Assembly (NCBI GenBank): GCA_902576125.1
Contig: CACGUF010000005.1
Coordinates: 18,657-82,656 of the forward strand
Length of the DNA stretch: 64,000 nucleotides
DNA from: an uncultured Alphaproteobacteria bacterium
Lineage (GTDB): Bacteria; Pseudomonadota; Alphaproteobacteria; HIMB59; GCA-002718135
Direction of reading: 5' to 3'
The notes beneath the pieces are model-generated. The model saw nothing but the letters and a program-made list of their open reading frames with translations. It was not told the origin of the DNA and did not search any database. Numbering within the stretch: the stretch's first letter is position 1; every line of letters starts with the position of its first letter. Below, piece by piece: positions 32,084 to 53,631 of the stretch. Position numbers and translations under genes: made by a program.

Positions 32084-32926
32084 TTAAATTTGAAAGTATA
32101 GGAGACATATACCCACTACCACAAATATCGAAGGAACTATTCTTTTAGATGCTTTTTTTTCTTTTAAAATAAGTAGGCCAATTAAAGTGGCAAATATTAT
32201 ACTAGTCTCCCGCATCGAAGACACATAGGCAATGGGTAAATATTGCATACACCAAACAGCTAACCCATAAGCTAAAGGTGCCAAAATTCCAAATGCAAAT
32301 CCTGGGAAAAAAAGATCTTTACTAATTATTCTTAAACCGTTCTCTTTAAATAAGAAGGACGCAATTAATGTTGGTACTCCATTAAGCAAAAGCATCCAAT
32401 ATAGAAAAGTGTAAGGATTTTCAGAATGTCTAACACCGATGCCATCTACCAAAGTATAAGTAGTAATCATAATAGCTGTTAACAAACCAAGAATAAGGGC
32501 CGAATAATTAAACTTTAATTTGTCAGAGTAAGAAATTAAAAATAAACCTGCACAGACAATCAAAATAGCAATGAATCCAAATAATGAAATTTTATCAGTT
32601 AAATAAATTAAACTTATTATAGCAAGTAATAAAGATGAACTTCCTCTAGCTATAGGATAAATGAAAGATAGATCCCCATACTTATAAGAGAAGATTACAA
32701 GCAATCTATAAAAACCATGAAGAAGAGCTGATATAATAATTAATATCCAAATATAGGTAGTTGGGTAAGGAACGCTTAAAACAAGAGGGGTGAAAATAAT
32801 AATTTCAACAACAGATGTAATACCTAAAACACCAAGTGGGTTTTTATTATATTTAAGAATGCTATGACAGGCTGCATGCGATAATGCAGCAATAAATAAA
32901 AGTAAAAATAAAAAATTAACTGACAT
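32084..32926 (-). CDS. DMT/EamA transporter, phosphonate-associated type
   Basis: AAL.HA, YKYGDLSFIYPIARG, YTLVDGIGVR, RETSIIF; last gene of the ABC operon divergent from phnA. Confidence 0.8.
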   Translation of the reverse strand: MSVNFLFLLLFIAALSHAACHSILKYNKNPLGVLGITSVVEIIIFTPLVLSVPYPTTYIWILIIISALLHGFYRLLVIFSYKYGDLSFIYPIARGSSSLLLAIISLIYLTDKISLFGFIAILIVCAGLFLISYSDKLKFNYSALILGLLTAIMITTYTLVDGIGVRHSENPYTFLYWMLLLNGVPTLIASFLFKENGLRIISKDLFFPGFAFGILAPLAYGLAVWCMQYLPIAYVSSMRETSIIFATLIGLLILKEKKASKRIVPSIFVVVGICLLYFQI

Positions 32927-32949
32927 GAGACAAAACTAGAAAATTTAGT

Positions 32950-33843
32950 TTACTTCATACCTGTAAGAGTAATTCCTTCAATAAATCTTTTTTGTGCAAT
33001 TATAAAAGCAACAATTAAAGGAACTGTGACAGTAACAATTGATGCCATCATTGGGCCAAATTCATCACTGTCTATACCTCCTCTAAATTCTCTAATTCCA
33101 AGAGGCGGTGTAAAGAGATCTCTATTTCCAGTAATAACCATTCGTGGCCAGAAGTAATCATTCCAATGGGCAACAACTGAGAATATTGCAAATGCCAGTA
33201 ATGCGGGTATTGCTGTAGGCAACATAACCTTCCATACTATTGAATATTCTCCCATGCCGTCCATCCTGGCGGCATCAATTAATTCATCTGGAACTGTCAT
33301 AAAAAATTGCCGCATGAGAAAAATTCCAAATACAGATATTGTCCAGGGGAGTATTAAGGCGGAATAGGTATCAACGAGCCCGGCCTGGGCTAGCATTACA
33401 TAAAGAGGAAGTGCAATGCCGTGAACTGGTATTAGAAGACAAAATAATACCATCGAAAATACAAATTCCCGTCCATAAAATCGAAGTTTGGCAAGTGCAT
33501 AAGCACATGGTAAGGCGACAAGAACTTGAATGATAAAAATCGATAAAGTTACTATAACTCCATTCATTAAGTATCTAGGAATGGGAGCTTTTTCAAAAGC
33601 AAACCAGTAATTATAAATATACGGCTTGGTCGTACATGTTTCCTCGGAATAACCAGTTTTGACACATACTGGAAATGTTTGCACTTCTTGTGCACCTATT
33701 AAACCTCCAGAAATTGATTGAATTTCTTGTTGAGATTTTAGTGACATTGAAACCATCATATAAAATGGAAGTAAAACAAGGATTGCACCAACAATTAAAA
33801 TGCCATGTTTCCAGCTCTCACCAATATATTGTTTAGCTTGCAT
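32950..33843 (-). CDS. CUT1 (UgpE-like) ABC permease
   Basis: FLMRQFF, ELIDAARMDG EAA loop, HWNDYFWP. Confidence 0.9.
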   Translation of the reverse strand: MQAKQYIGESWKHGILIVGAILVLLPFYMMVSMSLKSQQEIQSISGGLIGAQEVQTFPVCVKTGYSEETCTTKPYIYNYWFAFEKAPIPRYLMNGVIVTLSIFIIQVLVALPCAYALAKLRFYGREFVFSMVLFCLLIPVHGIALPLYVMLAQAGLVDTYSALILPWTISVFGIFLMRQFFMTVPDELIDAARMDGMGEYSIVWKVMLPTAIPALLAFAIFSVVAHWNDYFWPRMVITGNRDLFTPPLGIREFRGGIDSDEFGPMMASIVTVTVPLIVAFIIAQKRFIEGITLTGMK

Positions 33844-34799
33844 TAATAATGAACCCTCTTCTCAATGATATATCTTTGGAAAAAAGTTAATATCAATATA
33901 AAACCAATAAAGACAACAGTAATAGCTGCTCCTATACTCGTTAAGTTTTGTTGGATAGCTTTTTCAAAAATTGCATACATCATAACGTAGGTAGTTTTAG
34001 ATGGGCCGCCCTTAGTAAGTATTTCAATTGTATCAAAAACTTGAAATGTTCTAATTGTTGTAATTGTTACTACAAACAAAGTTGTAGGTCCAAGCATTGG
34101 CCAAGTTACAAGTTTAAATTGTTCCCAGGTTGATTTAGCTCCATCCATTTCTGCTGCGTGATATAATTCTCGAGGTATACCTGTAAGGCCTGCTAAATAT
34201 AAAACCATATTAAAACCAAATGCTTGCCAAATTCCTATAAAACATATTGTCCAAATTGCTGTATTTTTTTGCTTCAGCCAATAAGGAAAATCCATATTAT
34301 TTGCACATGCCACATGATACCAGCTTTGTTGTGAGTCAACCCATGGTAACCAATGAAAACCAAGAATAAATTCTCTTACACCTCCGCAACCATTAGCTAA
34401 AAAACTATTTACTATACCAAGTGTTGGGTGAAGAGTGAATTCCCATGCAATTGCCATAGCAAGAAGAGTTGCCATAACAGGAAGAAAGAAAATTGTTTTA
34501 TAAATATCGGCTCCAAACCTTAGTGAATTTAATAGCATAGCAGCACACAAACCAAGTACAACGGAGATAGGAACTACAACAATTACATAAGTTGCTGTAG
34601 CCCAAATCATTTTTACATATGTTTTTCTTGAAAACATTTTTTCATAATTTTCAAGTCCGATCCATTCGAGAGATTTATTACCTAAATTATAATCAGTAAA
34701 AGAAATTCCACCTGCAAGAAATAAAGGAAAAATTAATATAATAATCATTAATATTATTGCAGGTGCAATAAACCAAATATGTGCTTTGGAATTATGCAT
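33843..34799 (-). CDS. CUT1 (UgpA-like) ABC permease
   Basis: GLENY, FFLP, IPRELYHAAEMDGA, TWPML, GGP. Confidence 0.9.
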   Translation of the reverse strand: MHNSKAHIWFIAPAIILMIIILIFPLFLAGGISFTDYNLGNKSLEWIGLENYEKMFSRKTYVKMIWATATYVIVVVPISVVLGLCAAMLLNSLRFGADIYKTIFFLPVMATLLAMAIAWEFTLHPTLGIVNSFLANGCGGVREFILGFHWLPWVDSQQSWYHVACANNMDFPYWLKQKNTAIWTICFIGIWQAFGFNMVLYLAGLTGIPRELYHAAEMDGAKSTWEQFKLVTWPMLGPTTLFVVTITTIRTFQVFDTIEILTKGGPSKTTYVMMYAIFEKAIQQNLTSIGAAITVVFIGFILILTFFQRYIIEKRVHY

Positions 34800-35925
34800 T
34801 ATTAAATTGAACCCTTTTTCCTTCTTTATTAAATAATAAAGCTTTATTAGAAACTCTTCTAATGTTTACTTTTGAACCACTAGAAATCTCATGTGTTAAT
34901 TGTGGTATACCTCTGACAATTATTCTATTCATTCCATCTTCTGTATTTACATGAAAGAAAATATCTGACCCTAAATTCTCTCTATAAGAAACTGTTGCAC
35001 TAAAAGTATTTTCATCACTTTGATTCGTAATTTCTAAATGTTCAGGTCTAATACCAATATTTAGCTCTAGATTTGTTTCTGAACTTTTTCTTTTTAAGGT
35101 GAGATTTAGTAAGCTTACAGCCCCACTTGAGTCTGATGAACCTCTAAAAATATTAATTTTAGGACTGCCGACAAATTGAGCCACACTTAGTGATGAAGGG
35201 TTATCATATACTTCTTGGGGCGTATCAAGCTGTAATAAATTTCCATCAATCATAACAGCCATACGAGAAGACATTGTTAATGCTTCAGCTTGATCATGTG
35301 TTACATAAACAAATGTAGTTTTAAGAGAATTGTGAAGCTCTGATAACTCTGATCTCATATGAACCCTAAGTGCCGCATCTAAATTTGATAGAGGCTCATC
35401 CATCAAAAATGCAACAGGCTCTCTCACCATTGCTCTACCAAGAGCTACTCTCTGTCTTTGACCACCAGATAGTTGACCTGGCTTTCTATCAAGTAGCTCA
35501 GAGATTTTAAGTGTCTCAGAAGTTTTACTGACTAATTGATTTATAGATTCTGTTTTTTGTTTCTTATTTGGAGACAAATTTCCAATTAAAGGTAATCTTT
35601 CAAATGTACTATAATCTCTAAGTCTAAGAGGGGTTTCTAAATTTCTTCTTACTGTGAGATGAGGATACAGAGCATAAGACTGAAACACCATTGCTAGGTC
35701 TCTTTCACTAGCTCTAATTCTGTTTACATTTTTATTATCAATTAAAACATCACCAGAAGTTTGTTGCTCAAGACCTGCTATAATTCGAAGTAAGGTAGAT
35801 TTGCCACAACCAGACGGACCAACTAATGTTAAAAATTCACCTTCTATTATATCTACGTTTAGATCTTTTAATACCTGGGTAGATCCAAATGATTTTGAAA
35901 TATTTTTAAGTGATATTGTGCCCAT
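34792..35925 (-). CDS. CUT1 (UgpC/MalK-like) ABC ATP-binding protein
   Basis: GPSGCGKST, VFQSYALYPH, LSGGQRQRVALGR, DEPLSNLDA. Confidence 0.92.
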   Translation of the reverse strand: MGTISLKNISKSFGSTQVLKDLNVDIIEGEFLTLVGPSGCGKSTLLRIIAGLEQQTSGDVLIDNKNVNRIRASERDLAMVFQSYALYPHLTVRRNLETPLRLRDYSTFERLPLIGNLSPNKKQKTESINQLVSKTSETLKISELLDRKPGQLSGGQRQRVALGRAMVREPVAFLMDEPLSNLDAALRVHMRSELSELHNSLKTTFVYVTHDQAEALTMSSRMAVMIDGNLLQLDTPQEVYDNPSSLSVAQFVGSPKINIFRGSSDSSGAVSLLNLTLKRKSSETNLELNIGIRPEHLEITNQSDENTFSATVSYRENLGSDIFFHVNTEDGMNRIIVRGIPQLTHEISSGSKVNIRRVSNKALLFNKEGKRVQFNNA

Positions 35926-35957
35926 TTGCCCCCCCTTTTTTTATATATACTTTGTAG

Positions 35958-36012
35958 TAAATTTTATGATTTTTTAAAATGAATTTATTTCATTTTTATC
36001 TAAATTTTATGA
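35958..36012. promoter_or_regulatory. candidate operator in the divergent ABC/phnA promoter region
   Basis: Inverted repeat AAAATGAA-TTTAT-TTCATTTT (35976-35996) flanked by direct repeats TAAATTTTATGA (35958-35969, 36001-36012); AT-rich background weakens it. Confidence 0.35.
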
Positions 36013-36088
36013 ACAAAAACTTAAATTATTATTGAGTTTAAGGAACATATAACTATAAATTCAATTTTTAAATTATTTATTAATCATT

Positions 36089-37330
36089 GTGTCTGAAAAT
36101 TTAGTAATTAATAACAGAGAATATCCAAGCACATTTTCTAAGACAGCTATAGTTATTTGTCTTGATGGAAGCCAAAAAGAGTATCTCGAAGAGGCATCAA
36201 AACTAAATCTTACACCTAATATTGATGCATTAATTTCTAATGGACAGAGTTTACTTGTTCATAGCGCTATCCCAAGTTTTACAAATCCAAATAATATATC
36301 AATTGTAACAGGGCAACCTAGCTCTGTTCACGGCATATGTGGTAATTTCTTTTACACTCCTGAAACAGGGGAAGAAGTTATGATGAATGATCCAAAATAT
36401 ATGCGTGCGCCAACAATATTTGAAAAATTTTATAATTCTGGATCAAAGATTGCTCTTGTTACTGCAAAAGATAAACTCAGAACTCTTTTGGGCAATGGTT
36501 TAGGATTTGATGATAATCGAGCAATATGTTTTTCGGCGGAAAAATCTGATCAGGCAACAAAAGAACATAATGGTATTGATAATGTTAATGAATGGTTAGG
36601 AATGCCTGTACCGGAAGTATACTCTCAGGGTCTTTCCGAATTTGTCATGGCAGCTGGAGTAAAATTACTTGAGGAATTTAAACCAAAAATAATGTACTTA
36701 TCTACGACAGATTATATTCAACATAAGTATGCACCAGGAAATGAAGTGGCTAATAAGTTTTATGCTATGTTTGATAAATATATTGGCCTTTTAAATAAGG
36801 GCGATGTATCAATAATTATTACGGCTGATCATGGTATGAAACCTAAATCAAAAGACGATGGTTCACCCAATGCAATTTTTTTACAAGACTATCTGGATAA
36901 AAAATTTGAACCAAATGTAGCAAAAGTTATTTTACCAATAACTGATCCTTACGTTGTTCATCATGGATCATTAGGTTCATTTGCAACAATTTATCTTGAA
37001 GATAAAACTAAAGTTAATGACGTTATAGAATCAATTAAAGAAATTAAGGATATAGAGGTAGTTTTAACTAAAGACGAAGGTTGCAATACATACAATCTAC
37101 CACCTGATCGCATGGGTGATATAATATGTATGTCCTCAGAATTTATGACCATTGGATCATCGGAAGATAAACATAATCTTTCCGGATTAAATGAACCTTT
37201 ACGTTCTCACGGTGGTTTGCATGAGCGAGAGGTGCCTTTTATATCAAATCTAAAAATTCAAAATTACAATAATGAAAAACAGCTATATAATTATGATGCA
37301 TTCTACTATGCAATTAATGGAGCTCTGTAA
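36089..37330 (+). CDS. phnA: phosphonoacetate hydrolase
   Basis: [53 protein letters not shown]; GTG start. Confidence 0.95.
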
Positions 37331-38769
37331 TGGAAAAGAAAATGATTAATGAAGCTATGCGAATTGCTGGCAAAAAAGTAACTTTTGAAAAAACAATTGA
37401 TGTTGAGTATCCTTTTACGGGTGAAGTCATTGGTACGGTTCCTGCAGGAAATGCTGAACATGCAAAACAAGCTCTTGAAATTGCAGCAAACTATCAACCT
37501 AAGTTGACAAGATATGAAAGACAAAAGATTCTTCAAACAGCCGCAGAGGTACTTGTAAAAAGAAAAGAAGAAATCTCTGATATCATTACTTTAGAGCTTG
37601 GGATTTCAAAACAAGACTCTCTATATGAAGTCGGTAGGGCATTTGATGTTTTTTCTTTAACTGCACAACTTTGTATTCATGATGACGGAGAAATTTTTTC
37701 TTGTGATTTAACTCCTCATGGAAAAGCGAGAAAAATATTTACAATAAGAGAACCATTAACAGCAATTTCTGCAATTACTCCTTTTAATCATCCGTTAAAC
37801 ATGGTGGCGCACAAAATTGCTCCTTCTATTGCAACGAATAATTGTACTGTTTGTAAACAGACAGAGTTAACTCCATTAACAGCAATGGTTCTTGCGGATG
37901 TTTTATATGAAGCTGGTCTACCTCCTGAAATGTTTTCTGTTGTTACAGGATGGCCACAAGATATTGGTTCAGAAATGATAAAGAATTCAAATATTGACCT
38001 TATTACTTTTACAGGAAGTGTTGGAGTTGGAAAACTAATTGCTGAACAAGCAGGATATAAAAGAACCGTTCTTGAACTTGGTGGAAATGATCCTCTAATT
38101 GTTTTAAATGATTTAGATTCAGATGATTTAAAGAAAGCTGTTGAATTAGCAGTAACTGGGGCAACAAAAAATTCAGGACAACGCTGTACAGCAGTTAAAA
38201 GAATACTTGTACAAGAAAAAATTGCTGATCAGTTTGTTGAACTGGCTTTGGAAAGAGCTAAAAAAATTAAGTTCGGAGACCCAATGAGCATGGAAACTGA
38301 TTTAGGTACCGTTGTTAATGCTCAAGCAGCTGAACTGTTTGATAAAAGAGTTTCAATGGCAGAAGGAGATGGTGCGAAAATTTTATATCATCCTGGAAGA
38401 AAAGATGCGTTATTGCCTCCTATAGTAATTGATAATGTTGATCCTAAAAGTGAATTAGTATTGGAAGAAACTTTTGGACCTGTCATTCCAATTATACGCG
38501 TTCCAAATGATGATGAATCTGTCATCAAGATCTCAAATTCAACTGCTTTTGGATTATCTTCCGGTGTGTGTACCAATAATTTTATGAGAGCAAAAAAATA
38601 TATTCAAAACTTAAATGTTGGAACTGTCAATATTTGGGAAGTACCTGGATATAGAATTGAAATGTCTCCTTTTGGGGGAATTAAAGACTCGGGACTGGGA
38701 TACAAAGAGGGTGTTATTGAGGCGATGAAGAGTTTTACTAATGTGAAGACTTTTTCACTTCCTTGGTAA
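37330..38769 (+). CDS. phnY: phosphonoacetaldehyde dehydrogenase (NAD-dependent)
   Basis: ALDH motifs [28 protein letters not shown]; [10 protein letters not shown]; coupled to phnA. Confidence 0.92.
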
Positions 38770-44467: not shown

Positions 44468-45100
44468 TTATAAAGTGGTTTTAAAATAAATATATTTTTT
44501 AAACTCTTTTTGTAAATCAATACTTACTCTAGCATGCACTTTTCCTTGTCTACCTTGAAAAGAGCTTTTTTCTTCAATTGGAAAAACTCCTTCATGCCAA
44601 ATATTTGGGTGTATATAAAGTCCCTGTGATCCATCAAAATAAAACGCCTTAAAATCACCAACTTGTACGTCATCTCCAGGTAAAGCTAATGGTGAAATAA
44701 AAGGGCTTTTAGTGGAGGGATAAAAGAGCTGTCCACCATCAGGGTGGTAATTCACATGCCAGATATATATATGGTCAGGTTTTTTATATTCTGTTGCTGG
44801 ATCACTCGTTGGTGGTAAAGCATGTCCTAGTATATATTTACCATCTACTTCGTAGTCACTATTGTTATGTTGAACAGCATTATTTTGTCCCCACAAAGTA
44901 CTACCTTCCCACCAAGTATCAAAAGATCCTTCCGTACTCCCTCCTTCATTTCCTGTTCCTTTATCAATCTCTCGCCAACCTTTTTTAGGCCACGTTACAA
45001 TTTCAATGTCACTATTTTCATAGGAGTCAATTAAGTATCCATATCCTTTAAGTGTTTCATTGGTCGCTTTAACTAGAAGAATTTCAACAGCATCACTCAT
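44468..45100 (-). CDS. ureidoglycolate lyase (AllA)-like cupin
   Basis: ATNETLKGYG, HPDGGQLFYP, GLYIHPNIWH pattern typical of the AllA fold; directly downstream of phnW. Confidence 0.65.
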   Translation of the reverse strand: MSDAVEILLVKATNETLKGYGYLIDSYENSDIEIVTWPKKGWREIDKGTGNEGGSTEGSFDTWWEGSTLWGQNNAVQHNNSDYEVDGKYILGHALPPTSDPATEYKKPDHIYIWHVNYHPDGGQLFYPSTKSPFISPLALPGDDVQVGDFKAFYFDGSQGLYIHPNIWHEGVFPIEEKSSFQGRQGKVHARVSIDLQKEFKKYIYFKTTL

Positions 45101-46210: not shown

Positions 46211-46231
46211 AATGATAAAATAAAGTAATAT

Positions 46232-48220: not shown

Positions 48221-48230
48221 ATTTTAAATT

Positions 48231-48254
48231 TAAAAGGGGGATATAAATCCCCCT
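48231..48254 (-). terminator. hairpin after the betaine-type SBP gene
   Basis: AGGGGGAT-N4-ATCCCCCT stem with a T run on the minus strand, between SBP and permease. Confidence 0.7.
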
Positions 48255-48275
48255 AGAAAAATTAAGATTAAAGGA

Positions 48276-49223
48276 TTATTTTATCCACGTACCCCATCTA
48301 TCTTTATTGTTAGACATCCATTCAGCTACTACAGCCTCTACTGTATTACCATCAAGATCTACAGCAGCAACTAGATTGCCCATTTCATTACTATCAAGTG
48401 TAAAAGCTTCTACTGCATCGTAAGCACCTGGCCATTTGTCTTTAAGCATGCTTGAAGCTACTTTCCAAATAGGACCTCTTGGTTTACCACAATCATAAGC
48501 AGCATTTTTATTTATACCCCAAGACGGATCTGTATAACACTCAGTCGTGTATGGTGGAAATTCTACAAATTCTCCATCATATTTAGAAGGTGCCCAATGT
48601 GGAGCATATACCCAAAGCATTATAGGTGCTTTTCTTTGATATGCAGATTCTAATTCACCAAAAAGCGCTCCATCAGTTCCTGCATGAATTACTTCCCAAT
48701 CTAACCCAAGAGCTTCAACGCGCTCATCATCATATCCACCCCAAGTTACAGGACCACCTAGATATCTTCCTTTTGGAGATGTTTCTGGTGTAGAAAAAGC
48801 TTCTGCACAATCGTTAAGAGCTTCCCAATTTGGAAGTCCAGGACATTTGTCTTTCATGTAAGATGGATACCACCATTCCTCAATAGCATCCATTCCAGTA
48901 GTTCCTACATTAACTACTCTTCCATCAGCTGTATATTCGTCAATGGCATCACGACCAGTTGTTTCCCACATCTCCATTGCTACATGCAGATCCCCTGTTT
49001 GAAGGCCAGCAAATTGAGCAATATAATCGGCAGGAACTAGCTCAACATTGTATCCAGCTTCTTTAAGAACTTCAGCCATAATGTTAGTTGTGATTAATTG
49101 ACCAGTCCAGTCATGCAAAGTAAGCTTGATAGGATCTTTTGATTCCACCGCATAAATATTTTGTGCAAATAGAATAAAAATAAAGCTTAATAGAATATTA
49201 AATTTATTTTTAAGAATTTTCAT
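48276..49223 (-). CDS. glycine betaine/TMAO (TmoX-like) ABC substrate-binding protein
   Basis: DPI....HDW.GQ, EEWWYP...KDKCPGLPNWEALNDC, KGRYLGGPVTW, YDCG.P, KWP pattern similar to TmoX-family SBPs. Confidence 0.82.
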   Translation of the reverse strand: MKILKNKFNILLSFIFILFAQNIYAVESKDPIKLTLHDWTGQLITTNIMAEVLKEAGYNVELVPADYIAQFAGLQTGDLHVAMEMWETTGRDAIDEYTADGRVVNVGTTGMDAIEEWWYPSYMKDKCPGLPNWEALNDCAEAFSTPETSPKGRYLGGPVTWGGYDDERVEALGLDWEVIHAGTDGALFGELESAYQRKAPIMLWVYAPHWAPSKYDGEFVEFPPYTTECYTDPSWGINKNAAYDCGKPRGPIWKVASSMLKDKWPGAYDAVEAFTLDSNEMGNLVAAVDLDGNTVEAVVAEWMSNNKDRWGTWIK

Positions 49224-49348
49224 TTTACCTCCCAGTAATAAATTTTATTAAAACATTAAATAAAACTAATGAATAAAACTACTAAAAACGAACAATTATT
49301 CTTAAATTTTCTAATAATTATTAAGTTTATTAATAAATTTTACAATAT

Positions 49349-50359
49349 TTAATTATTAATAAATTTTGAGACCGTTTCTTTATTAAGTGAGCCAACTATA
49401 TTATTTGATCTATCAATAACTGAAACTGATCCTTCAGAGAGAACTTTTTCGAGAATTGAAAATATTTTTTCATCTTCATAAACTGTTGTGGAATTATTTG
49501 TTACTTTTTTATTATCCATTATACTTTTTACAGATAATAATCTCTCCCTTGGGAGGTCTTCAGTAAATTCTTTTACATAATCATCTGCAGGCTTCATAAT
49601 TAAATCTTCAGGACTTCCAATTTGTACTATTCTTCCTTCATTCATAATAATGATTCTATCTGCTAATTTAATTGCTTCATCAAAATCATGAGTTATAAAA
49701 ATAATAGTTTTTTTAAGTGAGTTTTGAATTTTTAAAAACTCATTTTGCATTTCTTTTCTTATTAACGGATCTAAAGCAGAAAATGGTTCATCTAAAAACC
49801 ATAACTCTGGTTTAACAGCCAGAGAGCGACCAATACCAACTCTTTGTTGTTGTCCTCCTGATAGTTCTTTTGGAAAATAGTTTTCTCTTCCTTGTAGTCC
49901 TACCAGTTCAATTATTTCTAAAGCAGATTTCTCTCTTTCTTTTTTACTAATGCCCTGTACCTCTAAAGGAAATGCTATATTTTCTATTACTGTTCTATGA
50001 GGAAAAAGAGCAAAGTGTTGGAACACCATACCCATCTTATGTCTTCTAATTTCTATTAATTCATTTTTTGTTAATTTTCCCATATCAATATTTTCAAAAA
50101 AAATTTCTCCAATTGTTGGATCAACTAATCTAGACATACATCTTACTAAAGTTGATTTTCCTGAACCACTTAGACCCATTATTACAAGAATCTCATTTTC
50201 ATAAACTTCTAATGAGGCATTTCTAATTGCTTGTATATAACCACTTGCTTCTATTGTTTTTTTATCAGGGTTATTATTATGAAGTTGTAAAAATTCTTTT
50301 GGCTTATCCCCATATAATTTCCAAACATTTTTACATACAAGTTTAGGTGACTTATTCAT
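49349..50359 (-). CDS. ProV-type ABC ATP-binding protein
   Basis: MGLSGSGKST, FQHFALFPH, LSGGQQQRVG, DEPFSALDPLIR. Confidence 0.92.
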   Translation of the reverse strand: MNKSPKLVCKNVWKLYGDKPKEFLQLHNNNPDKKTIEASGYIQAIRNASLEVYENEILVIMGLSGSGKSTLVRCMSRLVDPTIGEIFFENIDMGKLTKNELIEIRRHKMGMVFQHFALFPHRTVIENIAFPLEVQGISKKEREKSALEIIELVGLQGRENYFPKELSGGQQQRVGIGRSLAVKPELWFLDEPFSALDPLIRKEMQNEFLKIQNSLKKTIIFITHDFDEAIKLADRIIIMNEGRIVQIGSPEDLIMKPADDYVKEFTEDLPRERLLSVKSIMDNKKVTNNSTTVYEDEKIFSILEKVLSEGSVSVIDRSNNIVGSLNKETVSKFINN

Positions 50360-50361
50360 CT

Positions 50362-51126
50362 TTATCCTTTAGCGTACCATCCATTATCTACATACAAAGC
50401 TGTTCCATTAACAAAACTAGATTCATCAGAAGCTAAATATAACACAGCGGATGCAACTTCTTCTGGCTTACATATTCTTCCCTGTACAGAATGCAAATCA
50501 TTTTCATTCCAATTTTGCCCTTGCTCATCTAATTCCTTAATCTCTCTTAATCCATGATTTGTTTTAACAAAACCAGGACATATCGCATTACATCTAATTC
50601 CTTGATCTCTGTATTCAACAGCGATTGATCTAGCTAATTGTAAAACAGCACCTTTGGTCATGCAATATAATGACTCTAGGGCAAAACCTTTTTCCCCTCC
50701 TATTGATGAAGTAATAATAATATTTCCTCCTTTATTATTGAGCATTGAAGGAATCACTTCATTACAAACAAGAAATGCGGATCGAACATTTATATCCATT
50801 AAATAATCATAATCTTTTTCAGAAGACTCATGAAGAGGTTTAACTATGATAGTCCCAGCATGATTAAATAAAATATTAACTGTGCCAAATAAATCCATAA
50901 TTTGACTAATTGATTTTTTTACTTCACTAGATTTTGTTAAATCAGTATGAAAGAAAAATGCTTTTTCACTATTTGTATTAATTTTATTTACAGTTTTTTC
51001 ACCCTCAGATTTATTTATATCCATTATAGCAACTAGAGCACCTTCATTACAGAATAATTCTGCTGTAGCTTTGCCCATTCCAGAAGCGCCACCTGTAATA
51101 ATTACTTTCTTATTTTTTAATTTCAT
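50362..51126 (-). CDS. short-chain dehydrogenase/reductase
   Basis: TGGASGMG, NHAG, YCMTK, ICPG. Confidence 0.92.
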   Translation of the reverse strand: MKLKNKKVIITGGASGMGKATAELFCNEGALVAIMDINKSEGEKTVNKINTNSEKAFFFHTDLTKSSEVKKSISQIMDLFGTVNILFNHAGTIIVKPLHESSEKDYDYLMDINVRSAFLVCNEVIPSMLNNKGGNIIITSSIGGEKGFALESLYCMTKGAVLQLARSIAVEYRDQGIRCNAICPGFVKTNHGLREIKELDEQGQNWNENDLHSVQGRICKPEEVASAVLYLASDESSFVNGTALYVDNGWYAKG

Positions 51127-51190
51127 TTTATTATGTATGTTTAATAAGTATAATGCAAAATGGTCAATAAAAAACTATTATATAAAATTT

Positions 51191-51205
51191 TTATGTTAAA
51201 CATAA
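51191..51205. promoter_or_regulatory. palindromic candidate operator in the SDR/kinase divergent region
   Basis: TTATGTT-A-AACATAA perfect inverted repeat. Confidence 0.35.
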
Positions 51206-51248
51206 TTGTAAAATATATTTTAAAAAGTTAGAAGTTTAAAAGGTTTTT

Positions 51249-52172
51249 ATGGATACATATATTGATAAAGTTTTTTCAATTTTAAATAATATTAAGGGAT
51301 ATGAAAAAATTTCAAGAGAAAATAGTAACCTGAAGCGCCTTGGCGGAATGACTAATATTGTTCATTTAGTAGAAGCTGAAAATATTAATCTCATAGTTCG
51401 TATCCCTGGAAAAGGAACAGAAGATTATATTAATCGTACTTTTGAATATAATAATGCAATGGCGGCATGGCGGGCTGGTATATCAGCAGAGATTATATGG
51501 GCAGATGTTGAGAATGGAATAATGGTTTCAAAAGCAATTAATGGAATAGAAACTATGACTCCAAACCTTTTTACTTCAAGAGAAGGCTCACCAGCTAGAG
51601 CAGGTTTAGCTTTGGCAAAGCTTCATAATTCTGGAGAGACTTTTGATTTTCACTTCGATCTTTTTAATATGATTGATGATTACTTAAATATTCTATCTTC
51701 TAAAAATGCTGAATTACCGGAAGGATATCATGATATAGTAGAAGCAGCAAAACCAGTAAAAGAAGCACTGGTTGCTAATCCTATGCCATTAGCTCCTAGT
51801 CATTGTGATCCTCTTTGTGAAAATTTTTTAGATGATGGAAATAATATGTGGATTGTAGATTGGGAATACTCGGGAATGAATGATCCCATGTGGGATCTTG
51901 GAGATCTTTCTGTTGAAGCAGGCATGGATGAGAATCAAGAGAATGAAATGTTGATAGCATATTTTGGTAAAGATCCAACTGCAGCTCAAAAAGGAAGAGT
52001 TATAATTTATAAAGCAATGTGTGATTTACTCTGGACTTTATGGGGCTTGATTCAGCATGCAGATAAAAATCCAGCTGAAGATTTCTGGGCTTATTCAATA
52101 GAACGTTTTGAACGTTGTAAAAAATTGATGCAAAAATCTGAATTCGCTATTCATATAAATGCTATTAAATAA
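51249..52172 (+). CDS. choline/ethanolamine kinase (APH-superfamily phosphotransferase)
   Basis: LGGMTN, RIPGKGT, HCDPLCENF (Brenner-type motif), IVDWEYSGMND. Confidence 0.87.
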   Translation: MDTYIDKVFSILNNIKGYEKISRENSNLKRLGGMTNIVHLVEAENINLIVRIPGKGTEDYINRTFEYNNAMAAWRAGISAEIIWADVENGIMVSKAINGIETMTPNLFTSREGSPARAGLALAKLHNSGETFDFHFDLFNMIDDYLNILSSKNAELPEGYHDIVEAAKPVKEALVANPMPLAPSHCDPLCENFLDDGNNMWIVDWEYSGMNDPMWDLGDLSVEAGMDENQENEMLIAYFGKDPTAAQKGRVIIYKAMCDLLWTLWGLIQHADKNPAEDFWAYSIERFERCKKLMQKSEFAIHINAIK

Positions 52173-52178
52173 AATAAG

Positions 52179-52502
52179 CTAATCTTTTATTCTATCTACT
52201 CTTCCAATTGACGTTGCTAGTTTTGCAAGCTGTTGATCAATCCAATTAGGATTTCTATCATACATGCTTCCTAATAGAATAAAATATAGACTATGTAATA
52301 AGAATGAACAGGTTATATAAAACCATGTTATTCCTTCTGGAAAAGGGACAAAAAAAATAATTGGAAAAAAAATAATACTTTGAAAAAAAACTTTTACGGC
52401 AATCCCCGCTAATGAGTAATCAAGTGATTTAATAATTATATTCCATAAAGCATGTAAAAATGCTGCAAAAAAAATTAAAAAATATATTGATGCACTTGTC
52501 AT
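52179..52502 (-). pseudogene. truncated EamA/DMT paralog of 32084..32926 with unrelated C-terminal tail
   Basis: First ~82 aa align by eye with the N-terminus of 32084..32926 (AAFLHALWN, LLH..Y); similarity stops where GDLS should follow, then a 25-aa hydrophilic tail. Confidence 0.65.
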
Positions 52503-52546
52503 TAGTAATTGTTTTGATATAAATTAATTTTACTAACTAATTTTAT

Positions 52547-53107
52547 ATGAAAAACAATATCATTAATGAACTTTTGAATTTACTTAAGATAAAAGGTGCT
52601 GATATTCAATACGGGAATGAAGATGTTACCCAGTTAGAACACGCCCTTCAATGTGCTGAACTAGCTGAGCACAATAATAAATCAGACGCATTTATTACAG
52701 CTGCATTACTTCATGATATTGGTCATCTAATATATGAAGACAAAGATCCTATTCATGAGGGAAAAGATGGCGTGCATGAAGATTTAGGAGCTGATTATTT
52801 AGCAAAATATTTTGGTGAAGAAGTAACACTTCCTATTCGAGCACACGTTGCATCAAAGCGATATTTGGCGGCTGTAGAAGATGGGTACTATGATCAACTA
52901 TCTGAAGCATCAAAAGAGTCACTTAAAGTACAGGGTGGTATTTTCACAAAAGAAGAAGCAGAGGAGTTTATCAATAAACCTCAGATGAAAGAAGCCGTTG
53001 AAATGCGTCGTTATGATGATCAGGCAAAAATACTTAATAAAGAAACACCGTCTGTAGAGCATTTCAGAAAATACGTAGAAAATTCATTTCAAGCATCTGC
53101 AAACTAA
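52547..53107 (+). CDS. phnZ: HD-domain C-P cleaving diiron oxygenase (PhnZ/TmpB family)
   Basis: YG.E.VTQLEHALQ, AALLHDIGH, HEDLGA, HV..KRYL, LSEASKESL..QGG, RRYDD.AK. Confidence 0.88.
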   Translation: MKNNIINELLNLLKIKGADIQYGNEDVTQLEHALQCAELAEHNNKSDAFITAALLHDIGHLIYEDKDPIHEGKDGVHEDLGADYLAKYFGEEVTLPIRAHVASKRYLAAVEDGYYDQLSEASKESLKVQGGIFTKEEAEEFINKPQMKEAVEMRRYDDQAKILNKETPSVEHFRKYVENSFQASAN

Positions 53108-53109
53108 TA

Positions 53110-53631
53110 ATGTTCGATGCATATGATTTTATCGATTCAAATAAATTTAATGGCAAAATAGTTTTAACTTCTTTTCCAGGTTTAAATGATGAAGGAAAAT
53201 TTGATTACAAAATTCTTACATCTCAACTCGAATTATTTTCAAAAAAACAATGTAGCTCGATTACTTCTTTTGTGGAAGATAAAGAATTTGAAAAGTTATG
53301 TGATAAAAAATTGTTTGTTGAAAAAATTTATCGACATCATTTAAAATGGTATCACTTACCTATTCAAGATTTAGGAGCACCCAACCAGGATTTTAAATTC
53401 AAATGGGAGACAACAAAAGTATTACTTAAAAATGAACTTATAGAGGGATCGAACGTTGTATTTCATTGTCGAGGTGGCAAAGGACGAGCAGGAACAATTG
53501 CAGCAATATTATTAGTTGATTTTGGCTATGAAAAAAAAGATGCTATTGAACTTGTGAGAGAGAGAAGAAAAGGGGCAATAGAAACGAAAGTTCAAGAAGA
53601 TTTTATCACTGCGTACCGAGCAGTAAATTAA
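53110..53631 (+). CDS. protein-tyrosine/dual-specificity phosphatase (CDKN3-like)
   Basis: WYHLPIQD, HCRGGKGRAG (CX5R), R.GAIET..QE. Confidence 0.87.
   Translation: MFDAYDFIDSNKFNGKIVLTSFPGLNDEGKFDYKILTSQLELFSKKQCSSITSFVEDKEFEKLCDKKLFVEKIYRHHLKWYHLPIQDLGAPNQDFKFKWETTKVLLKNELIEGSNVVFHCRGGKGRAGTIAAILLVDFGYEKKDAIELVRERRKGAIETKVQEDFITAYRAVN

What the first reader, a model, noticed from the sequence alone, without database searches (positions are those of the whole stretch)
32084..53631. Extended ~21 kb phosphonate catabolic island funnelling several substrates into PhnY-PhnA
Seen: phnW, phnY, phnA and phnZ interleaved with two complete ABC importers, an Fe-ADH, a GpdQ-like phosphodiesterase, MetE-core, SAM-MT-like, AllA-like, SDR, choline-kinase-like and PTP genes, with EamA paralogs near both ends. 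Established: PhnW-PhnY-PhnA degrades AEP via phosphonoacetaldehyde and phosphonoacetate to acetate + Pi; PhnZ/TmpB cleave 1-hydroxy-phosphonates. No phnX, C-P lyase, phnCDE, PhnY*/TmpA or FAD amine oxidase genes are recognisable. Inference: the accessory genes form undescribed upstream branches for esterified, hydroxylated or N-methylated phosphonates.
Basis: partly seen in the sequence, partly recalled or inferred. Interest (0 to 1): 0.85.

Follow-up and report, generated by a model that had tools for sequence, protein, structure and literature searches.

The report
Modular phosphonate-use island in SAR11
This is a conserved, mix-and-match gene cluster in an abundant small-genome ocean bacterium that breaks down carbon-phosphorus compounds with known enzymes, but it always carries a few enzymes that nobody has characterised.

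Summary
Window 32084-53631 encodes PhnW, PhnY and PhnA, all above their curated cut-offs. The second "EamA" is only a 107-aa fragment.

The locus lies at one fixed chromosomal site. I found it in 20 of 24 genomes of the window's genus. The other 4 assemblies also lack the flanking gene I searched for.

The locus is modular:
- **Core:** EamA, phnA-phnY-methyltransferase, phnW-AllA-like and phnZ-phosphatase.
- **Common insert:** Ugp-like ABC importer, binding protein, MetE-core and Fe-ADH.
- **Rare insert:** ProVWX-like importer, SDR and choline-kinase-like gene, seen in 2 of 80 related loci.

The Fe-ADH branch (2-hydroxyethylphosphonate to phosphonoacetaldehyde) was published in 2026, so it is no longer undescribed.

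The best lead is the AllA-like gene:
- It lies directly downstream of phnW in 58 of 80 loci and forms its own clade.
- It coexists with a canonical allantoicase-linked AllA in 13 genomes of the genus.
- It is therefore a diverged paralogue, not the purine-pathway lyase.

The 368-aa protein has a histamine-N-methyltransferase-like fold. Its relatives elsewhere sit in MetE-like/MetK/AhcY operons.

Verdict: a known pathway in a new, ecologically abundant variant with three or four uncharacterised recurrent enzymes. Interest 0.55.

The parts
32084..32926 (-). EamA/DMT-family permease. It is the last gene of the ugpC-A-E-eamA transcription unit and the only transporter in the minimal form of the island.
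   Evidence: PF00892. TIGR03340 'phosphonate utilization associated putative membrane protein', 118 bits against a cut-off of 288. Found beside phnA in the minimal islands G005, L035 and L036.
32950..35925 (-). Ugp-like (CUT1-type) ABC importer: ATPase 34792-35925, permeases 33843-34799 and 32950-33843.
   Evidence: Best NCBIfam hits are UgpC 388 bits, UgpA 102 and UgpE 128, all below their cut-offs. The genes overlap or lie 23 nt apart. Relatives are 88-100% identical.
35926..36088 (.). Divergent intergenic region with a conserved promoter-like motif (TTGAGT-N16-TATAAA) upstream of phnA.
   Evidence: The motif was read by eye from an alignment of phnA upstream regions. It is conserved in the window and in L041, L042, L043, L045, L047 and L065 (7 of the 12 regions aligned). 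It is a consensus match only; the whole-region promoter scan found no more matches than shuffled sequence.
36089..37330 (+). PhnA, phosphonoacetate hydrolase.
   Evidence: TIGR02335, 469.9 bits against a cut-off of 407.55.
37330..38769 (+). PhnY, phosphonoacetaldehyde dehydrogenase.
   Evidence: TIGR03250, 785.6 bits against a cut-off of 635.65. It overlaps phnA by 1 nt.
38912..40165 (+). Family-1/8 solute-binding protein, the partner of the Ugp-like importer. A strong hairpin follows at 40197-40221.
   Evidence: PF13416/PF01547. UgpB only 62.7 bits against 411. Hairpin of 11 pairs. It is not in PF13343, the family of the known AEP binders AepX, AepS and PhnS (PMC8316502 passages).
40253..41332 (+). 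MetE-core: a single-domain, Zn-type homocysteine (thiol) methyl/alkyl-transferase homologue.
   Evidence: PF01717. Best solved relative is 3rpd, 160 bits. HICCGYP aligns with HICYGY and PDCGL aligns with NCGM of that chain. PRK09121 scores 197.5 against a cut-off of 392. A 49%-identical copy sits in the separate phn cluster L097.
41337..42449 (+). PhpC-type Fe-ADH, probably a 2-hydroxyethylphosphonate dehydrogenase.
   Evidence: TIGR03405 Phn_Fe-ADH scores 363.7 against a cut-off of 423.7; the next family scores 155.8. The function of this class was shown in PMC13576164.
42452..43558 (+). 368-aa small-molecule SAM-dependent methyltransferase with a histamine-N-methyltransferase-like fold. It is the last gene of the phnA-phnY operon.
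   Evidence: No Pfam or NCBIfam hit. AF2 model pLDDT 76.8. Foldseek 1jqe, E 9.9e-10. VIA Z 15.5, rmsd 3.9, 257 residues aligned. The sequence shows FDAGMGDGS and ASQPY. Found in 19 of 24 genomes of the genus.
43561..44358 (-). Metallophosphoesterase, GpdQ-like by closest solved structure. Probably a (phosphono)diesterase.
   Evidence: PF00149. 2zo9/2dxl/3d03, E 9e-18. SpdA model 178 against 400. Present in 53 of 80 loci.
44468..45100 (-). AllA-like cupin protein, 210 aa, lying 6 nt downstream of phnW. A diverged paralogue of ureidoglycolate lyase with unknown activity.
   Evidence: PF04115, 41.6 bits, covering only model positions 73-139. PDB 1xsr E 4e-10. The model is low-confidence (pLDDT 53.8) but matches AllA 1yqc at Z 11.7, with the next match at 7.9. 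phnW-adjacent in 58 of 80 loci. It forms its own clade. It coexists with a canonical AllA in 13 genomes of the genus.
45107..46210 (-). PhnW, 2-aminoethylphosphonate-pyruvate transaminase.
   Evidence: PRK13479, 522.4 bits against 296; TIGR02326, 477.4 against 400.8.
46232..50359 (-). ProVWX-like ABC importer: fused double ProW 46232-48220, OpuAC binding protein 48276-49223 (hairpin at 48254-48235), ProV ATPase 49349-50359.
   Evidence: ProV TIGR01186, 339.6 against 326.6; ProW-type permease with two domains. Hairpin. Rare in the island. Orthologous modules occur elsewhere.
50362..51126 (-). Short-chain dehydrogenase/reductase, the first gene of the SDR-proV-opuAC-proW-phnW-allA-like string. 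Substrate unknown.
   Evidence: PF13561/PF00106; only generic NCBIfam hits, all below cut-off. Present with the importer in G010 and L034.
51249..52172 (+). Choline/ethanolamine-kinase-family protein.
   Evidence: PF01633/PF01636. Solved relative 3dxq, E 1.8e-109. Orthologues of 49-67% identity occur in 10 of 400 sampled genomes.
52179..52502 (-). 107-aa N-terminal remnant of a second EamA gene.
   Evidence: TIGR03340 matches only model positions 4-87. The tail is not membrane-like. G010 has a match of about 260 aa to EamA at this position.
52547..53107 (+). HD-domain oxygenase of the PhnZ/TmpB type.
   Evidence: TIGR03276, 206.4 against 214.6; PhnZ1 model 162.3 and TmpB model 156.1, both against 300. 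Solved TmpB 6npa 118.9 bits and PhnZ 4mlm 109.8 bits, both full-length.
53110..53631 (+). Dual-specificity/PTP-type Cys phosphatase lying 2 nt after the HD gene.
   Evidence: PF22784. HCRGGKGR motif. Closest solved structure is SsoPTP 2i6i, E 5e-11. Follows phnZ in 51 of 80 loci.

Best explanation
The region is a real, conserved and modular organophosphonate-scavenging locus of a SAR11-type (Pelagibacterales-like) genus. It sits inside a phosphorus-stress neighbourhood.

Shown by sequence:
- PhnW, PhnY and PhnA form the hydrolytic route from 2-aminoethylphosphonate (AEP) through phosphonoacetaldehyde and phosphonoacetate to acetate + Pi.
- A PhnZ/TmpB-type HD oxygenase gives a second, oxidative C-P cleavage for 1-hydroxy-2-amino(alkyl)ethylphosphonates.

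Inferred from a family with published function:
- The PhpC-type Fe-ADH oxidises 2-hydroxyethylphosphonate (HEP) to phosphonoacetaldehyde. HEP and AEP therefore share PhnY-PhnA.

Inferred from context only:
- The Ugp-like importer and the GpdQ-like metallophosphoesterase bring in and de-esterify phosphonate (or phosphate) esters.
- The ProVWX-like importer, SDR and choline-kinase-like gene are a separately mobile module for a choline-like amine. It has been spliced in front of phnW in a few strains.
- The AllA-like protein is a diverged lyase-fold enzyme that works with PhnW, on phosphonoacetaldehyde or on the product of a substituted AEP.
- The histamine-N-methyltransferase-like enzyme and MetE-core carry out a methyl-transfer step on a pathway substrate.
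For: Core enzymes are above curated cut-offs.

Fixed site and modular forms:
- The methyltransferase is present in 19 of 24 genomes of the genus.
- G004 also has the island; its contig ends inside MetE-core.
- The other 4 assemblies also lack the flanking MFS gene.
- Minimal, common and extended forms were seen in 6 fetched genomes and in 80 loci.
- Of the 39 loci that show PhnA, PhnY, PhnW and PhnZ together, 28 carry methyltransferase + binding protein + MetE-core + Fe-ADH + metallophosphoesterase + phosphatase.

Operon embedding: the gaps are phnW to AllA-like 6 nt, Fe-ADH to methyltransferase 2 nt, and SDR to ProV 2 nt.

Fe-ADH: the best family is Phn_Fe-ADH, by more than 200 bits. The function of that class is published (PMC13576164).

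AllA-like:
- 58 of 80 loci have phnW on the same strand within 300 nt.
- Five more loci are cut at the contig or locus edge.
- The phnW-linked copies form a clade (SH-aLRT 99).
- They include a second Pelagibacteraceae cluster type (L096/L097).
- An AllA-like gene also lies in an Arenicellales cluster with true PhnW (560 bits) and PhnY (813 bits).
- A canonical AllA lies right after allantoicase in 15 genomes of the genus, and 13 of them also carry the divergent copy.

Ester branch: in L097 a PehA-like hydrolase occupies the position of an ester hydrolase (440 bits against 900).

Methyltransferase: in two other Alphaproteobacteria (L142, L137) a relative sits in an operon with a Liv-type ABC importer, a MetE-like gene, MetK and AhcY. 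This supports a real SAM-dependent activity coupled to a MetE-type enzyme.

RNA libraries: contigs from 4 marine metatranscriptome runs of 4 studies cover island genes at 90% identity or more. Some pieces are near-identical: 1 mismatch in 824 nt over the Fe-ADH, and 1 mismatch in 323 nt over the kinase gene.

Neighbourhood: PHO4 + PhoU-like, ArsC-like, OlsF-like, Ppk1, Ppx, and a GT4 + metallophosphoesterase pair.
Against: - No biochemistry exists for any protein of this locus.
- The Fe-ADH (363.7 against 423.7), the HD oxygenase (206.4 against 214.6) and EamA (118 against 288) are below their curated cut-offs.
- No PhnY*/TmpA-type dioxygenase lies in the island. The nearest candidates are on other contigs, below the TmpA cut-off (343 and 277 against 400), and sit in betaine-type contexts without an HD gene. 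The source of the HD enzyme's substrate is therefore open.
- The ProVWX/kinase module occurs without phn genes in 3 of 4 other genomes examined and is rare in the island.
- Methyltransferase relatives at 38-42% identity in 11 fetched loci have no phn gene nearby.
- Ugp-type importers and GpdQ-type esterases classically serve glycerophosphodiesters, not phosphonates.
- The RNA evidence is assembled contigs only. These cannot show strand or expression level, and DNA carry-over is not excluded.
- The loci are mostly close kin, so the counts are not independent events.
Confidence: 0.7

Rival explanations
1. Only phnW/Y/A, phnZ and the Fe-ADH deal with phosphonates. The other blocks are independent nutrient-scavenging genes that gathered in a phosphorus-stress hot spot and share promoters for economy. 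On this view the Ugp-like importer and esterase serve glycerophosphodiesters, the ProVWX/kinase/SDR block serves choline-like amines, MetE-core and the methyltransferase serve the methionine/SAM cycle, and the phosphatase serves phosphate esters.
For: - The ProVWX + kinase module is a conserved unit with a DeoR regulator and dimethylglycine-dehydrogenase-like genes. It has no phn gene within 20 kb in L161, L163 and L164.
- Methyltransferase relatives lie in MetE-like/MetK/AhcY operons without phn genes.
- The closest characterised families for the importer and esterase are Ugp and GpdQ-like.
- The flanks hold Pi transport, polyphosphate and lipid-remodelling-type genes.
- Neither binding protein belongs to a known phosphonate-binding family.
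Against: - The accessory genes are inside phn operons, not beside them (gaps of 2-6 nt).
- The binding protein, MetE-core and Fe-ADH were inserted as one block between phnY and the methyltransferase.
- MetE-core and an ester hydrolase recur in an independent phnA/phnW cluster (L097).
- The ProW/kinase/DMGDH-like module abuts phnW-phnY-AllA-like in an Arenicellales genome (L101).
- The phnW-linked AllA-like clade cannot be explained this way.
Confidence: 0.3
2. The AllA-like protein is simply the cell's ureidoglycolate lyase from purine/allantoin catabolism. It supplies glyoxylate, perhaps as an amino acceptor for PhnW.
For: - It is a true AllA homologue (PF04115; 1xsr E 4e-10; fold Z 11.7).
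- Its more distant relatives (52-56% identity) sit beside allantoate-amidohydrolase-family M20 enzymes (687-691 bits) and a dihydropyrimidinase.
- The genus has allantoicase in 16 of 24 genomes.
- SAR11 purine/allantoin catabolism ending in glyoxylate + urea is published (PMC11698098 passages).
Against: - Thirteen genomes of the genus carry both a canonical 170-177-aa AllA (121-136 bits, full model) directly after allantoicase and the divergent 210-214-aa copy by phnW (38-41 bits).
- The two share only 26% identity over 58 residues.
- The phnW-linked copies form a separate clade with their own insertion near residues 78-86.
- The window's assembly has the island copy but no allantoicase, though it is only 72% complete.
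Confidence: 0.08
3. Methylation-dependent oxidative route. The histamine-N-methyltransferase-like enzyme N-methylates AEP (or its 1-hydroxy derivative). A TmpA-like dioxygenase encoded elsewhere and the island's TmpB-like HD oxygenase then release glycine betaine + Pi. MetE-core recovers methionine.
For: - The HD protein scores slightly higher against solved TmpB than against PhnZ (118.9 against 109.8 bits).
- A TmpA-best-hit dioxygenase exists on contig C1 (343 bits).
- The methyltransferase fold is closest to an N-methyltransferase.
- Relatives lie in SAM-regeneration operons, which suggests high methyl flux.
- MetE-core lies two genes upstream.
Against: - The TmpA-like gene is below its cut-off (343 against 400) and sits with creatinase-like, aldehyde dehydrogenase and Rieske genes, without an HD gene.
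- The NCBIfam TmpB model (156 bits) scores lower than the generic PhnZ model (206 bits).
- Three SAM per phosphonate is costly when PhnW already handles AEP.
- Nothing shows whether the enzyme methylates N or O.
Confidence: 0.1

Closest known systems
PhnW-PhnY-PhnA hydrolytic AEP pathway (phnWAY clusters of marine Alphaproteobacteria)
   Same: All three enzymes are present above their equivalog cut-offs. phnAWYZ reads in ocean metagenomes are already attributed largely to Pelagibacterales, among others, and increase in the mesopelagic (PMC9381506 passages; PMC6852614 passages).
   Different: - The island has no LysR-type or other regulator and no AepXVW/PhnSTUV/AepP-type importer.
- phnA-phnY and phnW are in separate, convergent operons.
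- phnW is always followed by an AllA-like gene, and phnY (directly, or after the inserted block) by a methyltransferase.
PhpC-type HEP dehydrogenase clusters (Piazza et al. 2026, PMC13576164)
   Same: An Fe-ADH of the Phn_Fe-ADH family is associated with phnY-phnA and transporter genes.
   Different: - That paper says phpC homologues seldom occur in clusters that also hold phnW. Here they routinely do.
- Here the gene was inserted together with a CUT1-type binding protein and a MetE-core gene.
- The score is below the curated cut-off (363.7 against 423.7).
- I could not see the paper's Tables S1/S2 because supplements are closed, so I cannot say whether Pelagibacterales clusters are listed there.
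PhnY*/PhnZ and TmpA/TmpB oxidative C-P cleavage
   Same: The HD-domain protein aligns full-length with solved TmpB (6npa) and PhnZ (4mlm). The Tyr and Glu of the N-terminal ...Y-x-x-E... stretch are aligned. Their role in binding the substrate amine is recalled from memory, not tested.
   Different: - No 2-oxoglutarate dioxygenase partner is adjacent.
- The conserved partner gene is instead a Cys-phosphatase.
UgpBAEC + glycerophosphodiesterase (UgpQ/GpdQ) systems
   Same: A CUT1-type ABC importer occurs with a metallophosphoesterase whose closest solved relatives are 2zo9/2dxl/3d03.
   Different: - All scores are far below the Ugp equivalog cut-offs (binding protein 62.7 against 411).
- The importer and the esterase are gained and lost independently among relatives.
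- Both are embedded in phn operons.
AllA ureidoglycolate lyase (E. coli 1xsr/1yqc)
   Same: The fold matches (Z 11.7). The core motifs align...HP.G.Q.F... and ...G..YH.N.WH....
   Different: - About 50 extra residues, 21% identity, and only half of the Pfam model matched.
- It is not next to allantoicase.
- A canonical AllA is present separately in the same genomes.
'Phosphonate breakdown factors' PbfA-G (accessory enzymes found through recurrence in AEP clusters)
   Same: The logic is the same: genes of unknown role that recur inside AEP-degradation clusters (PMC12366243 section 6; PMC13576164).
   Different: None of the Pbf families whose Pfam family or enzyme class is given in the texts I read is in the island. 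These are PbfF pfam02826, PbfG pf00107, the FAD-dependent enzymes studied in PMC10590968 and the PLP-dependent lyase PbfA. The AllA-like, methyltransferase, MetE-core and Cys-phosphatase families are not mentioned in those texts.

Membership tests
PhnW (2-aminoethylphosphonate-pyruvate transaminase) | Whole-protein score above the curated equivalog cut-off | tested here: met
   PRK13479 522.4 against 296; TIGR02326 477.4 against 400.8
PhnY (phosphonoacetaldehyde dehydrogenase) | Score above the TIGR03250 cut-off | tested here: met
   785.6 against 635.65
PhnA (phosphonoacetate hydrolase) | Score above the TIGR02335 cut-off | tested here: met
   469.9 against 407.55
PhnW/PhnY/PhnA pathway | Catalytic activity on AEP, phosphonoacetaldehyde and phosphonoacetate | not testable with these tools
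   Needs enzyme assays or growth tests.
PhnZ/TmpB HD-domain oxygenases | Score above a curated family cut-off | tested here: not met
   TIGR03276 206.4 against 214.6; PhnZ1 162.3 against 300; TmpB 156.1 against 300. This is a near miss. Full-length alignment to solved TmpB and PhnZ at 118.9 and 109.8 bits supports superfamily membership.
PhnZ/TmpB HD-domain oxygenases | Adjacent 2-oxoglutarate/Fe dioxygenase (PhnY* or TmpA) that makes the 1-hydroxy substrate | tested here: not met
   None in the island. PhyH/TauD hits lie only on contigs C1, C3, C10, C11 and C31. The best TmpA-model score is 343 against 400.
PhpC-type HEP dehydrogenase (Fe-ADH, pf00465) | Fe-ADH domains and best hit to the phosphonate-associated Fe-ADH family | tested here: met
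   PF00465 + PF25137. TIGR03405 is the top hit at 363.7; the next family scores 155.8.
PhpC-type HEP dehydrogenase (Fe-ADH, pf00465) | Score above the TIGR03405 curated cut-off | tested here: not met
   363.7 against 423.7
PhpC-type HEP dehydrogenase (Fe-ADH, pf00465) | Clustering with phnY-phnA (or phnX) | tested here: met
   Same operon as phnA-phnY. Fe-ADH is present in 46 of 80 loci.
AllA ureidoglycolate lyase | Full-length match to PF04115 or the NCBIfam equivalogs | tested here: not met
   Only model positions 73-139 match, 41.6 bits. The best equivalog scores 35.2 against 230.
AllA ureidoglycolate lyase | AllA fold | tested here: met
   1yqc_A Z 11.7, rmsd 3.2, 138 of 160 residues aligned; next match Z 7.9. 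The model is low-confidence (pLDDT 53.8).
AllA ureidoglycolate lyase | Genomic association with allantoicase or allantoin catabolism | tested here: not met
   The canonical AllA holds that position, and the divergent copy lies by phnW.
Cobalamin-independent methionine synthase MetE | Two-domain architecture of about 750 aa | tested here: not met
   359 aa with the C-terminal catalytic domain only.
Cobalamin-independent methionine synthase MetE | Zn-ligand motifs of the catalytic domain | tested here: met
   H-x-C and a C-terminal Cys align with 3rpd and 1t7l. That these residues are the Zn ligands is recalled from memory.
Class I SAM-dependent methyltransferase | Rossmann-like methyltransferase fold with a glycine-rich SAM motif | tested here: met
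   Foldseek found 292 matches at E of 0.001 or lower; the 36 rows displayed were all methyltransferases, apart from one mitoribosome entry in complex with two methyltransferases, and 1jqe was the top hit. VIA Z 15.5. The sequence has FDAGMGDGS; the motif definition is recalled from memory.
Known phosphonate importers (PhnCDE; PhnSTUV/AepXVW/AepSTU; AepP) | Binding protein in PF12974 or PF13343, or a GlpT-like MFS | tested here: not met
   The island's binding proteins are PF01547/PF13416 and PF04069. The families of the known binders come from PMC8316502. A PF13343 system lies outside the island at 19490-23176.
C-P lyase pathway | PhnJ present | tested here: not met
   No PF06007 match in the 72%-complete assembly; the control rang in E. 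coli.
GpdQ-type glycerophosphodiesterase | Sequence relationship to the solved enzyme | tested here: inconclusive
   68 bits, E 9e-18, over residues 3-209. No curated model for the family was available to test membership.

The most novel reading that the evidence does not exclude
The genes that always travel with the SAR11 phn core would be new, dedicated phosphonate-processing enzymes. These are the phnW-coupled AllA-like clade, the histamine-N-methyltransferase-like enzyme (with MetE-core) and the phnZ-coupled Cys-phosphatase.

In the boldest form:
- The AllA-like cupin is a new lyase acting on phosphonoacetaldehyde or on a 1-hydroxy or N-substituted aminoethylphosphonate product of PhnW. 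It would cleave a C-N bond, or even a C-P bond, in analogy to the release of urea from ureidoglycolate.
- The methyltransferase/MetE-core pair runs a methyl-transfer step on aminophosphonates.

Much of the ocean's phnA/phnZ signal would then depend on chemistry that has not been described.
Probability: 0.3. Interest if true: 0.8.

Novelty: new variant of a known kind. Interest (0 to 1): 0.55.

Why it matters
Published surveys place phnA in 30-57% of mesopelagic organisms (PMC6852614). They also attribute 45% of marine phnZ reference sequences to Pelagibacterales (PMC9381506). The locus described here is a form in which SAR11-type genomes carry these genes.

If the recurrent unknown genes act on phosphonates, current gene-marker budgets (phnW/X/A/Z/J) miss part of the substrate range. 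HEP esters from dissolved polysaccharides, phosphonolipid head groups and N-methylated AEPs would all be candidates.

The two binding-protein genes would also become new transporter markers, because neither belongs to a known phosphonate-binding family.

The phnW-linked AllA-like clade is a compact, well-defined target. At 50% clustering it has 105 representatives at E of 1e-30 or lower. It suits the kind of context-guided enzyme discovery that produced PbfA-G.

If the rival reading is right, the locus is an ordinary known pathway sitting among unrelated scavenging genes.

Tried and rejected
- **PbfE search.** A paper search for 'PbfE' or 'phosphonate breakdown factor' returned only materials-science hits among the 15 of 227 papers listed.
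- **AllA-like gene in print.** I found no paper in the held library that links an AllA-like or ureidoglycolate-lyase gene with phnW.
  - Searching 'phosphonate' + 'ureidoglycolate' + 'phnW' gave one unrelated Pantoea study.
  - Searching 'ureidoglycolate'/'Pelagibacter'/'SAR11'/'phosphonate' gave two relevant hits, both about purine catabolism only.
- **RNA families.** Rfam at gathering thresholds over 28-60 kb found nothing.
- **Promoter and terminator scan.** Counts were no higher than in shuffled sequence: 89 against 101 and 8 against 8.6. Only the two hairpins after the binding-protein genes are worth noting.
- **AllA-like structure.** The AF2 model was poor (pLDDT 53.8), so I drew no active-site or metal-site conclusions. 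An idea that the cupin replaces the missing PhnY*-type hydroxylase could not be tested.
- **PhnW + AllA-like complex.** No verdict: score 0.00 against a mark of 0.32, and the controls were not run. This is no evidence either way.
- **Empty site.** I looked for an empty insertion site in the five genomes of the genus that lacked a methyltransferase match. Four also lack the flanking MFS gene. The fifth (G004) has the island, cut at a contig end. No empty site was seen.
- **TmpA-like and BBOX-like dioxygenases.** I examined the copies on other contigs as possible partners of the HD enzyme. Their neighbourhoods look like betaine or carnitine-type catabolism, so I dropped them as direct evidence.
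- **ArsM-type arsenic methyltransferase.** I considered this role for the 368-aa protein and rejected it, because no cysteine is among the columns invariant across its 15-sequence alignment.
- **Depth in RNA contigs.** The two binding-protein genes had the highest depth. The tool warns that contig depth cannot rank genes, so I do not use it as evidence of expression level.

Full report
**What is there.** The window is AT-rich, about 31% G+C. It lies on contig C5 of a 1.26-Mb assembly that is 72% complete. Close protein hits are named 'Candidatus Pelagibacter sp.' or 'Alphaproteobacteria bacterium'. Related loci come from records titled 'Pelagibacteraceae bacterium' or 'uncultured Alphaproteobacteria bacterium'. 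I therefore treat the organism as a SAR11-type (Pelagibacterales-like) bacterium. That is an inference.

- PhnA, PhnY and PhnW are above their curated equivalog cut-offs.
- The HD oxygenase (206.4 against 214.6), the phosphonate-type Fe-ADH (363.7 against 423.7) and the EamA permease (118 against 288) are best hits to phosphonate-associated families but fall below their cut-offs.
- Both ABC importers are complete.
- The second 'EamA' is a 107-aa remnant.

**Transcription units.** Gene spacing suggests four units:
- ugpC-A-E-eamA on the minus strand.
- phnA-phnY-SBP-MetE-core-Fe-ADH-methyltransferase on the plus strand, divergent from the first unit.
- SDR-proV-opuAC-proW-phnW-AllA-like(-esterase) on the minus strand, convergent with the second unit.
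- The kinase gene and phnZ-phosphatase on the plus strand.

Strong hairpins follow both binding-protein genes.

**Absences.**
- No PhnJ in the assembly.
- No PhnX above its cut-off.
- No PhyH/TauD dioxygenase in the island.
- Two TmpA/BBOX-family dioxygenases lie on other contigs. They are below the TmpA cut-off (343 and 277 against 400) and sit in betaine-like contexts.

**Conservation and modularity.** The 368-aa protein is found in 19 of 24 genomes of the genus at 71-93% identity over the part matched, with three matches cut by contig ends. A further genome has the island cut at a contig end. The remaining four lack the flanking gene as well. I saw no empty site.

The locus always lies between the same two sets of flanking genes:
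- FYDLN/MFS/MsrQP/SBP5 on one side.
- PHO4/PhoU-like/ArsC-like/(OlsF-like)/Ppk1 on the other.

The forms of the island are:
- **Minimal:** EamA, phnA-phnY-methyltransferase, (esterase), AllA-like-phnW and phnZ-phosphatase (G005, L035, L036).
- **Commonest:** adds UgpCAE plus SBP-MetE-core-Fe-ADH. This accounts for 28 of the 39 loci that show all four phn genes.
- **With a second Ugp-like system:** some loci, such as G014 and L049.
- **With ProVWX + SDR:** only the window, G010 and L034, and G010 lacks the kinase gene.

The loci were cut at 10 kb either side of the AllA-like gene and are mostly close kin. The counts are therefore lower bounds and are not independent events.

**What is already known.** PhpC-type Fe-ADHs oxidise HEP to phosphonoacetaldehyde and occur with phnY-phnA (PMC13576164). 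That paper notes they seldom share clusters with phnW, whereas here they regularly do. Other published points:
- Pelagibacterales account for 45% of marine phnZ reference sequences, and phnAWYZ increase in the mesopelagic (PMC9381506 passages).
- phnA occurs in 30-57% of mesopelagic organisms (PMC6852614 passages).
- The known AEP binding proteins belong to pfam13343 (PMC8316502 passages). Neither island binding protein does.

**The AllA-like gene.**
- It lies 6 nt after phnW in the window. It is on the same strand within 300 nt of phnW in 58 of 80 loci, and five further loci are cut at the edge.
- It is a true but divergent AllA homologue. Half of PF04115 matches, 1xsr scores E 4e-10, and the fold match is Z 11.7 against 7.9 for the next hit (on a low-confidence model).
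- A maximum-likelihood tree of 36 sequences separates two groups. One clade of 20 holds 18 phnW-adjacent copies, plus one truncated contig and one lone Njordibacter copy. The other 16 copies lie elsewhere.
- In the three loci of the second group that I annotated, the neighbours are allantoate-amidohydrolase-family M20 enzymes in L110 and L100 and a dihydropyrimidinase in L100, whereas L112 has unrelated neighbours.
- The split has SH-aLRT support of 99. This was a quick search without bootstraps and with a midpoint root.
- The decisive result is that genomes of the genus carry two PF04115 genes. A canonical 170-177-aa AllA lies directly after allantoicase in 15 genomes. The divergent copy lies by phnW. 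Both are present in 13 genomes.
- The two share 26% identity over 58 residues.
- SAR11 purine/allantoin catabolism is published (PMC11698098 passages), and the canonical copy accounts for it.
- The phnW-linked copy is therefore a specialised paralogue.
- Its conserved core (H115, N117-Q124, H164, W168, H169, Q185, H189, R191) is shared with the other group. An insertion near residues 78-86, K151 and G183 are specific to the phnW-linked clade.
- Its reaction is unknown.

**The methyltransferase and MetE-core.**
- The 368-aa protein folds as a capped class-I methyltransferase. The closest structure is histamine N-methyltransferase.
- Relatives at 38-42% identity occur in 11 of 400 sampled Pseudomonadota genomes, and none is near phn genes.
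- In L142 and L137 the relative sits between a MetE-like gene (PRK06520, 678 bits, scored for the L142 copy only) and MetK-AhcY, after a Liv-type ABC importer. That amounts to a complete SAM cycle.
- In Pelagibacter a 33% paralogue sits beside a creatinase-like M24 protein, a few kb from AhcY-MetK.
- The island's MetE-core keeps the H-x-C...C motif. A 49% homologue lies in the independent cluster L097, which runs PehA-like hydrolase, MetE-core, PhnA, aldehyde dehydrogenase, PhnW, AllA-like and EamA.
- A methyl-transfer step tied to the pathway is plausible. Its substrate is unknown.

**The ProVWX/kinase block.**
- The kinase is 49-67% identical to genes in 10 of 400 sampled genomes. It scores E 1.8e-109 against the solved but uncharacterised 3dxq.
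- In L161, L163 and L164 it belongs to a module of DeoR, dimethylglycine-dehydrogenase-like gene(s), two kinases and OpuAC-ProV-fused ProW, with no phn genes within 20 kb.
- In an Arenicellales genome (L101) the same type of module abuts true PhnW, PhnY and an AllA-like gene.
- The block is therefore a mobile amine-uptake module. It has been joined to phn genes at least twice, but it is not intrinsically phosphonate-specific.

**RNA libraries.** Contigs from four marine metatranscriptome runs of four studies cover 15 to 29 of the 30 depth bins over 34000-53900 at 90% identity or more. Some pieces are near-identical. Contigs cannot show strand, expression level or the absence of DNA.

**Verdict.** The backbone and the HEP branch are known chemistry. 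The island's modular architecture in SAR11-type genomes and its recurrent unknown enzymes are a new variant worth experimental follow-up. Those enzymes are the AllA-like paralogue, the methyltransferase with MetE-core, and the phnZ-linked phosphatase.

Statements about PhnY*/PhnZ and TmpA/TmpB chemistry, the GpdQ identity of the PDB entries, methyltransferase motifs and MetE Zn ligands are recalled from memory and were not seen in any call.

Noticed in passing
window 19490-23176: An ABC system made of a PF13343 (SBP_bac_6) binding protein, a fused 539-aa permease and an ATPase on the opposite strand. Its best NCBIfam hits are the AEP binders and permeases PhnS/PhnU, but they are weak (63.5 bits against 310). 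It could be an AepXVW-like AEP importer serving the island from 9-12 kb away.
   Followed up: partly
window 53628-63272: Downstream of the island lies a run of phosphorus-related genes: PHO4-type Pi transporter + PhoU-like, ArsC/LMW-phosphatase-like, OlsF-like acyltransferase, Ppk1, SixA-like, Ppx/GppA, an aquaporin-family gene, and a GT4 glycosyltransferase + metallophosphoesterase pair. The last pair recalls the SAR11 lipid-remodelling PlcP/Agt genes (recalled from memory, not tested).
   Followed up: partly
L142:3256-15109 and L137:5525-16910 (large alphaproteobacterial genomes G363, G330): A conserved operon of a Liv-type ABC importer, a MetE-like gene (PRK06520, scored in L142 only), a homologue of the 368-aa methyltransferase, MetK and AhcY, followed by an FMO-like gene in L142. 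This is a self-contained SAM-cycle operon of unknown purpose.
   Followed up: partly
L161, L163, L164 (and L101:1-4501): A conserved module of a DeoR regulator, one or two 806-818-aa dimethylglycine-dehydrogenase-like proteins, two choline-kinase-family proteins and OpuAC-ProV-fused ProW. It is seen in three alphaproteobacterial loci from three families, and in part in an Arenicellales genome. The substrate is unknown.
   Followed up: partly
G009:C1:14953-16337 and 14 other genomes of the genus: An allantoicase gene followed directly by a canonical AllA. Allantoicase is present in 16 of 24 genomes of the window's genus and in 0 of 16 sampled genomes of the sister family. It was not found in the window's own 72%-complete assembly.
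   Followed up: yes
L031:7986-10377 and L032:9152-11546 (sister-family genomes G034, G026): A 33-37% paralogue of the 368-aa methyltransferase is paired with a creatinase/prolidase-type M24 protein. In G026 the pair lies next to BHMT-like, DAO, DHDPS-like and aldehyde dehydrogenase genes.
   Followed up: partly
L094 (3.8-kb contig of a MAG titled Methylococcales): Its AllA-like gene is nearly identical to that of a Pelagibacteraceae MAG (L095). It is followed by PHO4/PhoU-like genes 82-83% identical to the window's. The contig looks mis-binned.
   Followed up: no
window 40197-40221 (+) and 48254-48235 (-): G+C-rich hairpins with T-runs lie immediately after each of the two binding-protein genes. 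This pattern would fit partial termination after those genes inside the operons.
   Followed up: no
G000 contig C1:51747-56802 (L147:7747-12802): A dioxygenase whose best NCBIfam hit is TmpA (343 bits against 400) sits between a Rieske oxygenase and a creatinase-like M24 protein, with an aldehyde dehydrogenase after the M24 gene. This looks like a betaine-type catabolic cluster without an HD oxygenase.
   Followed up: partly
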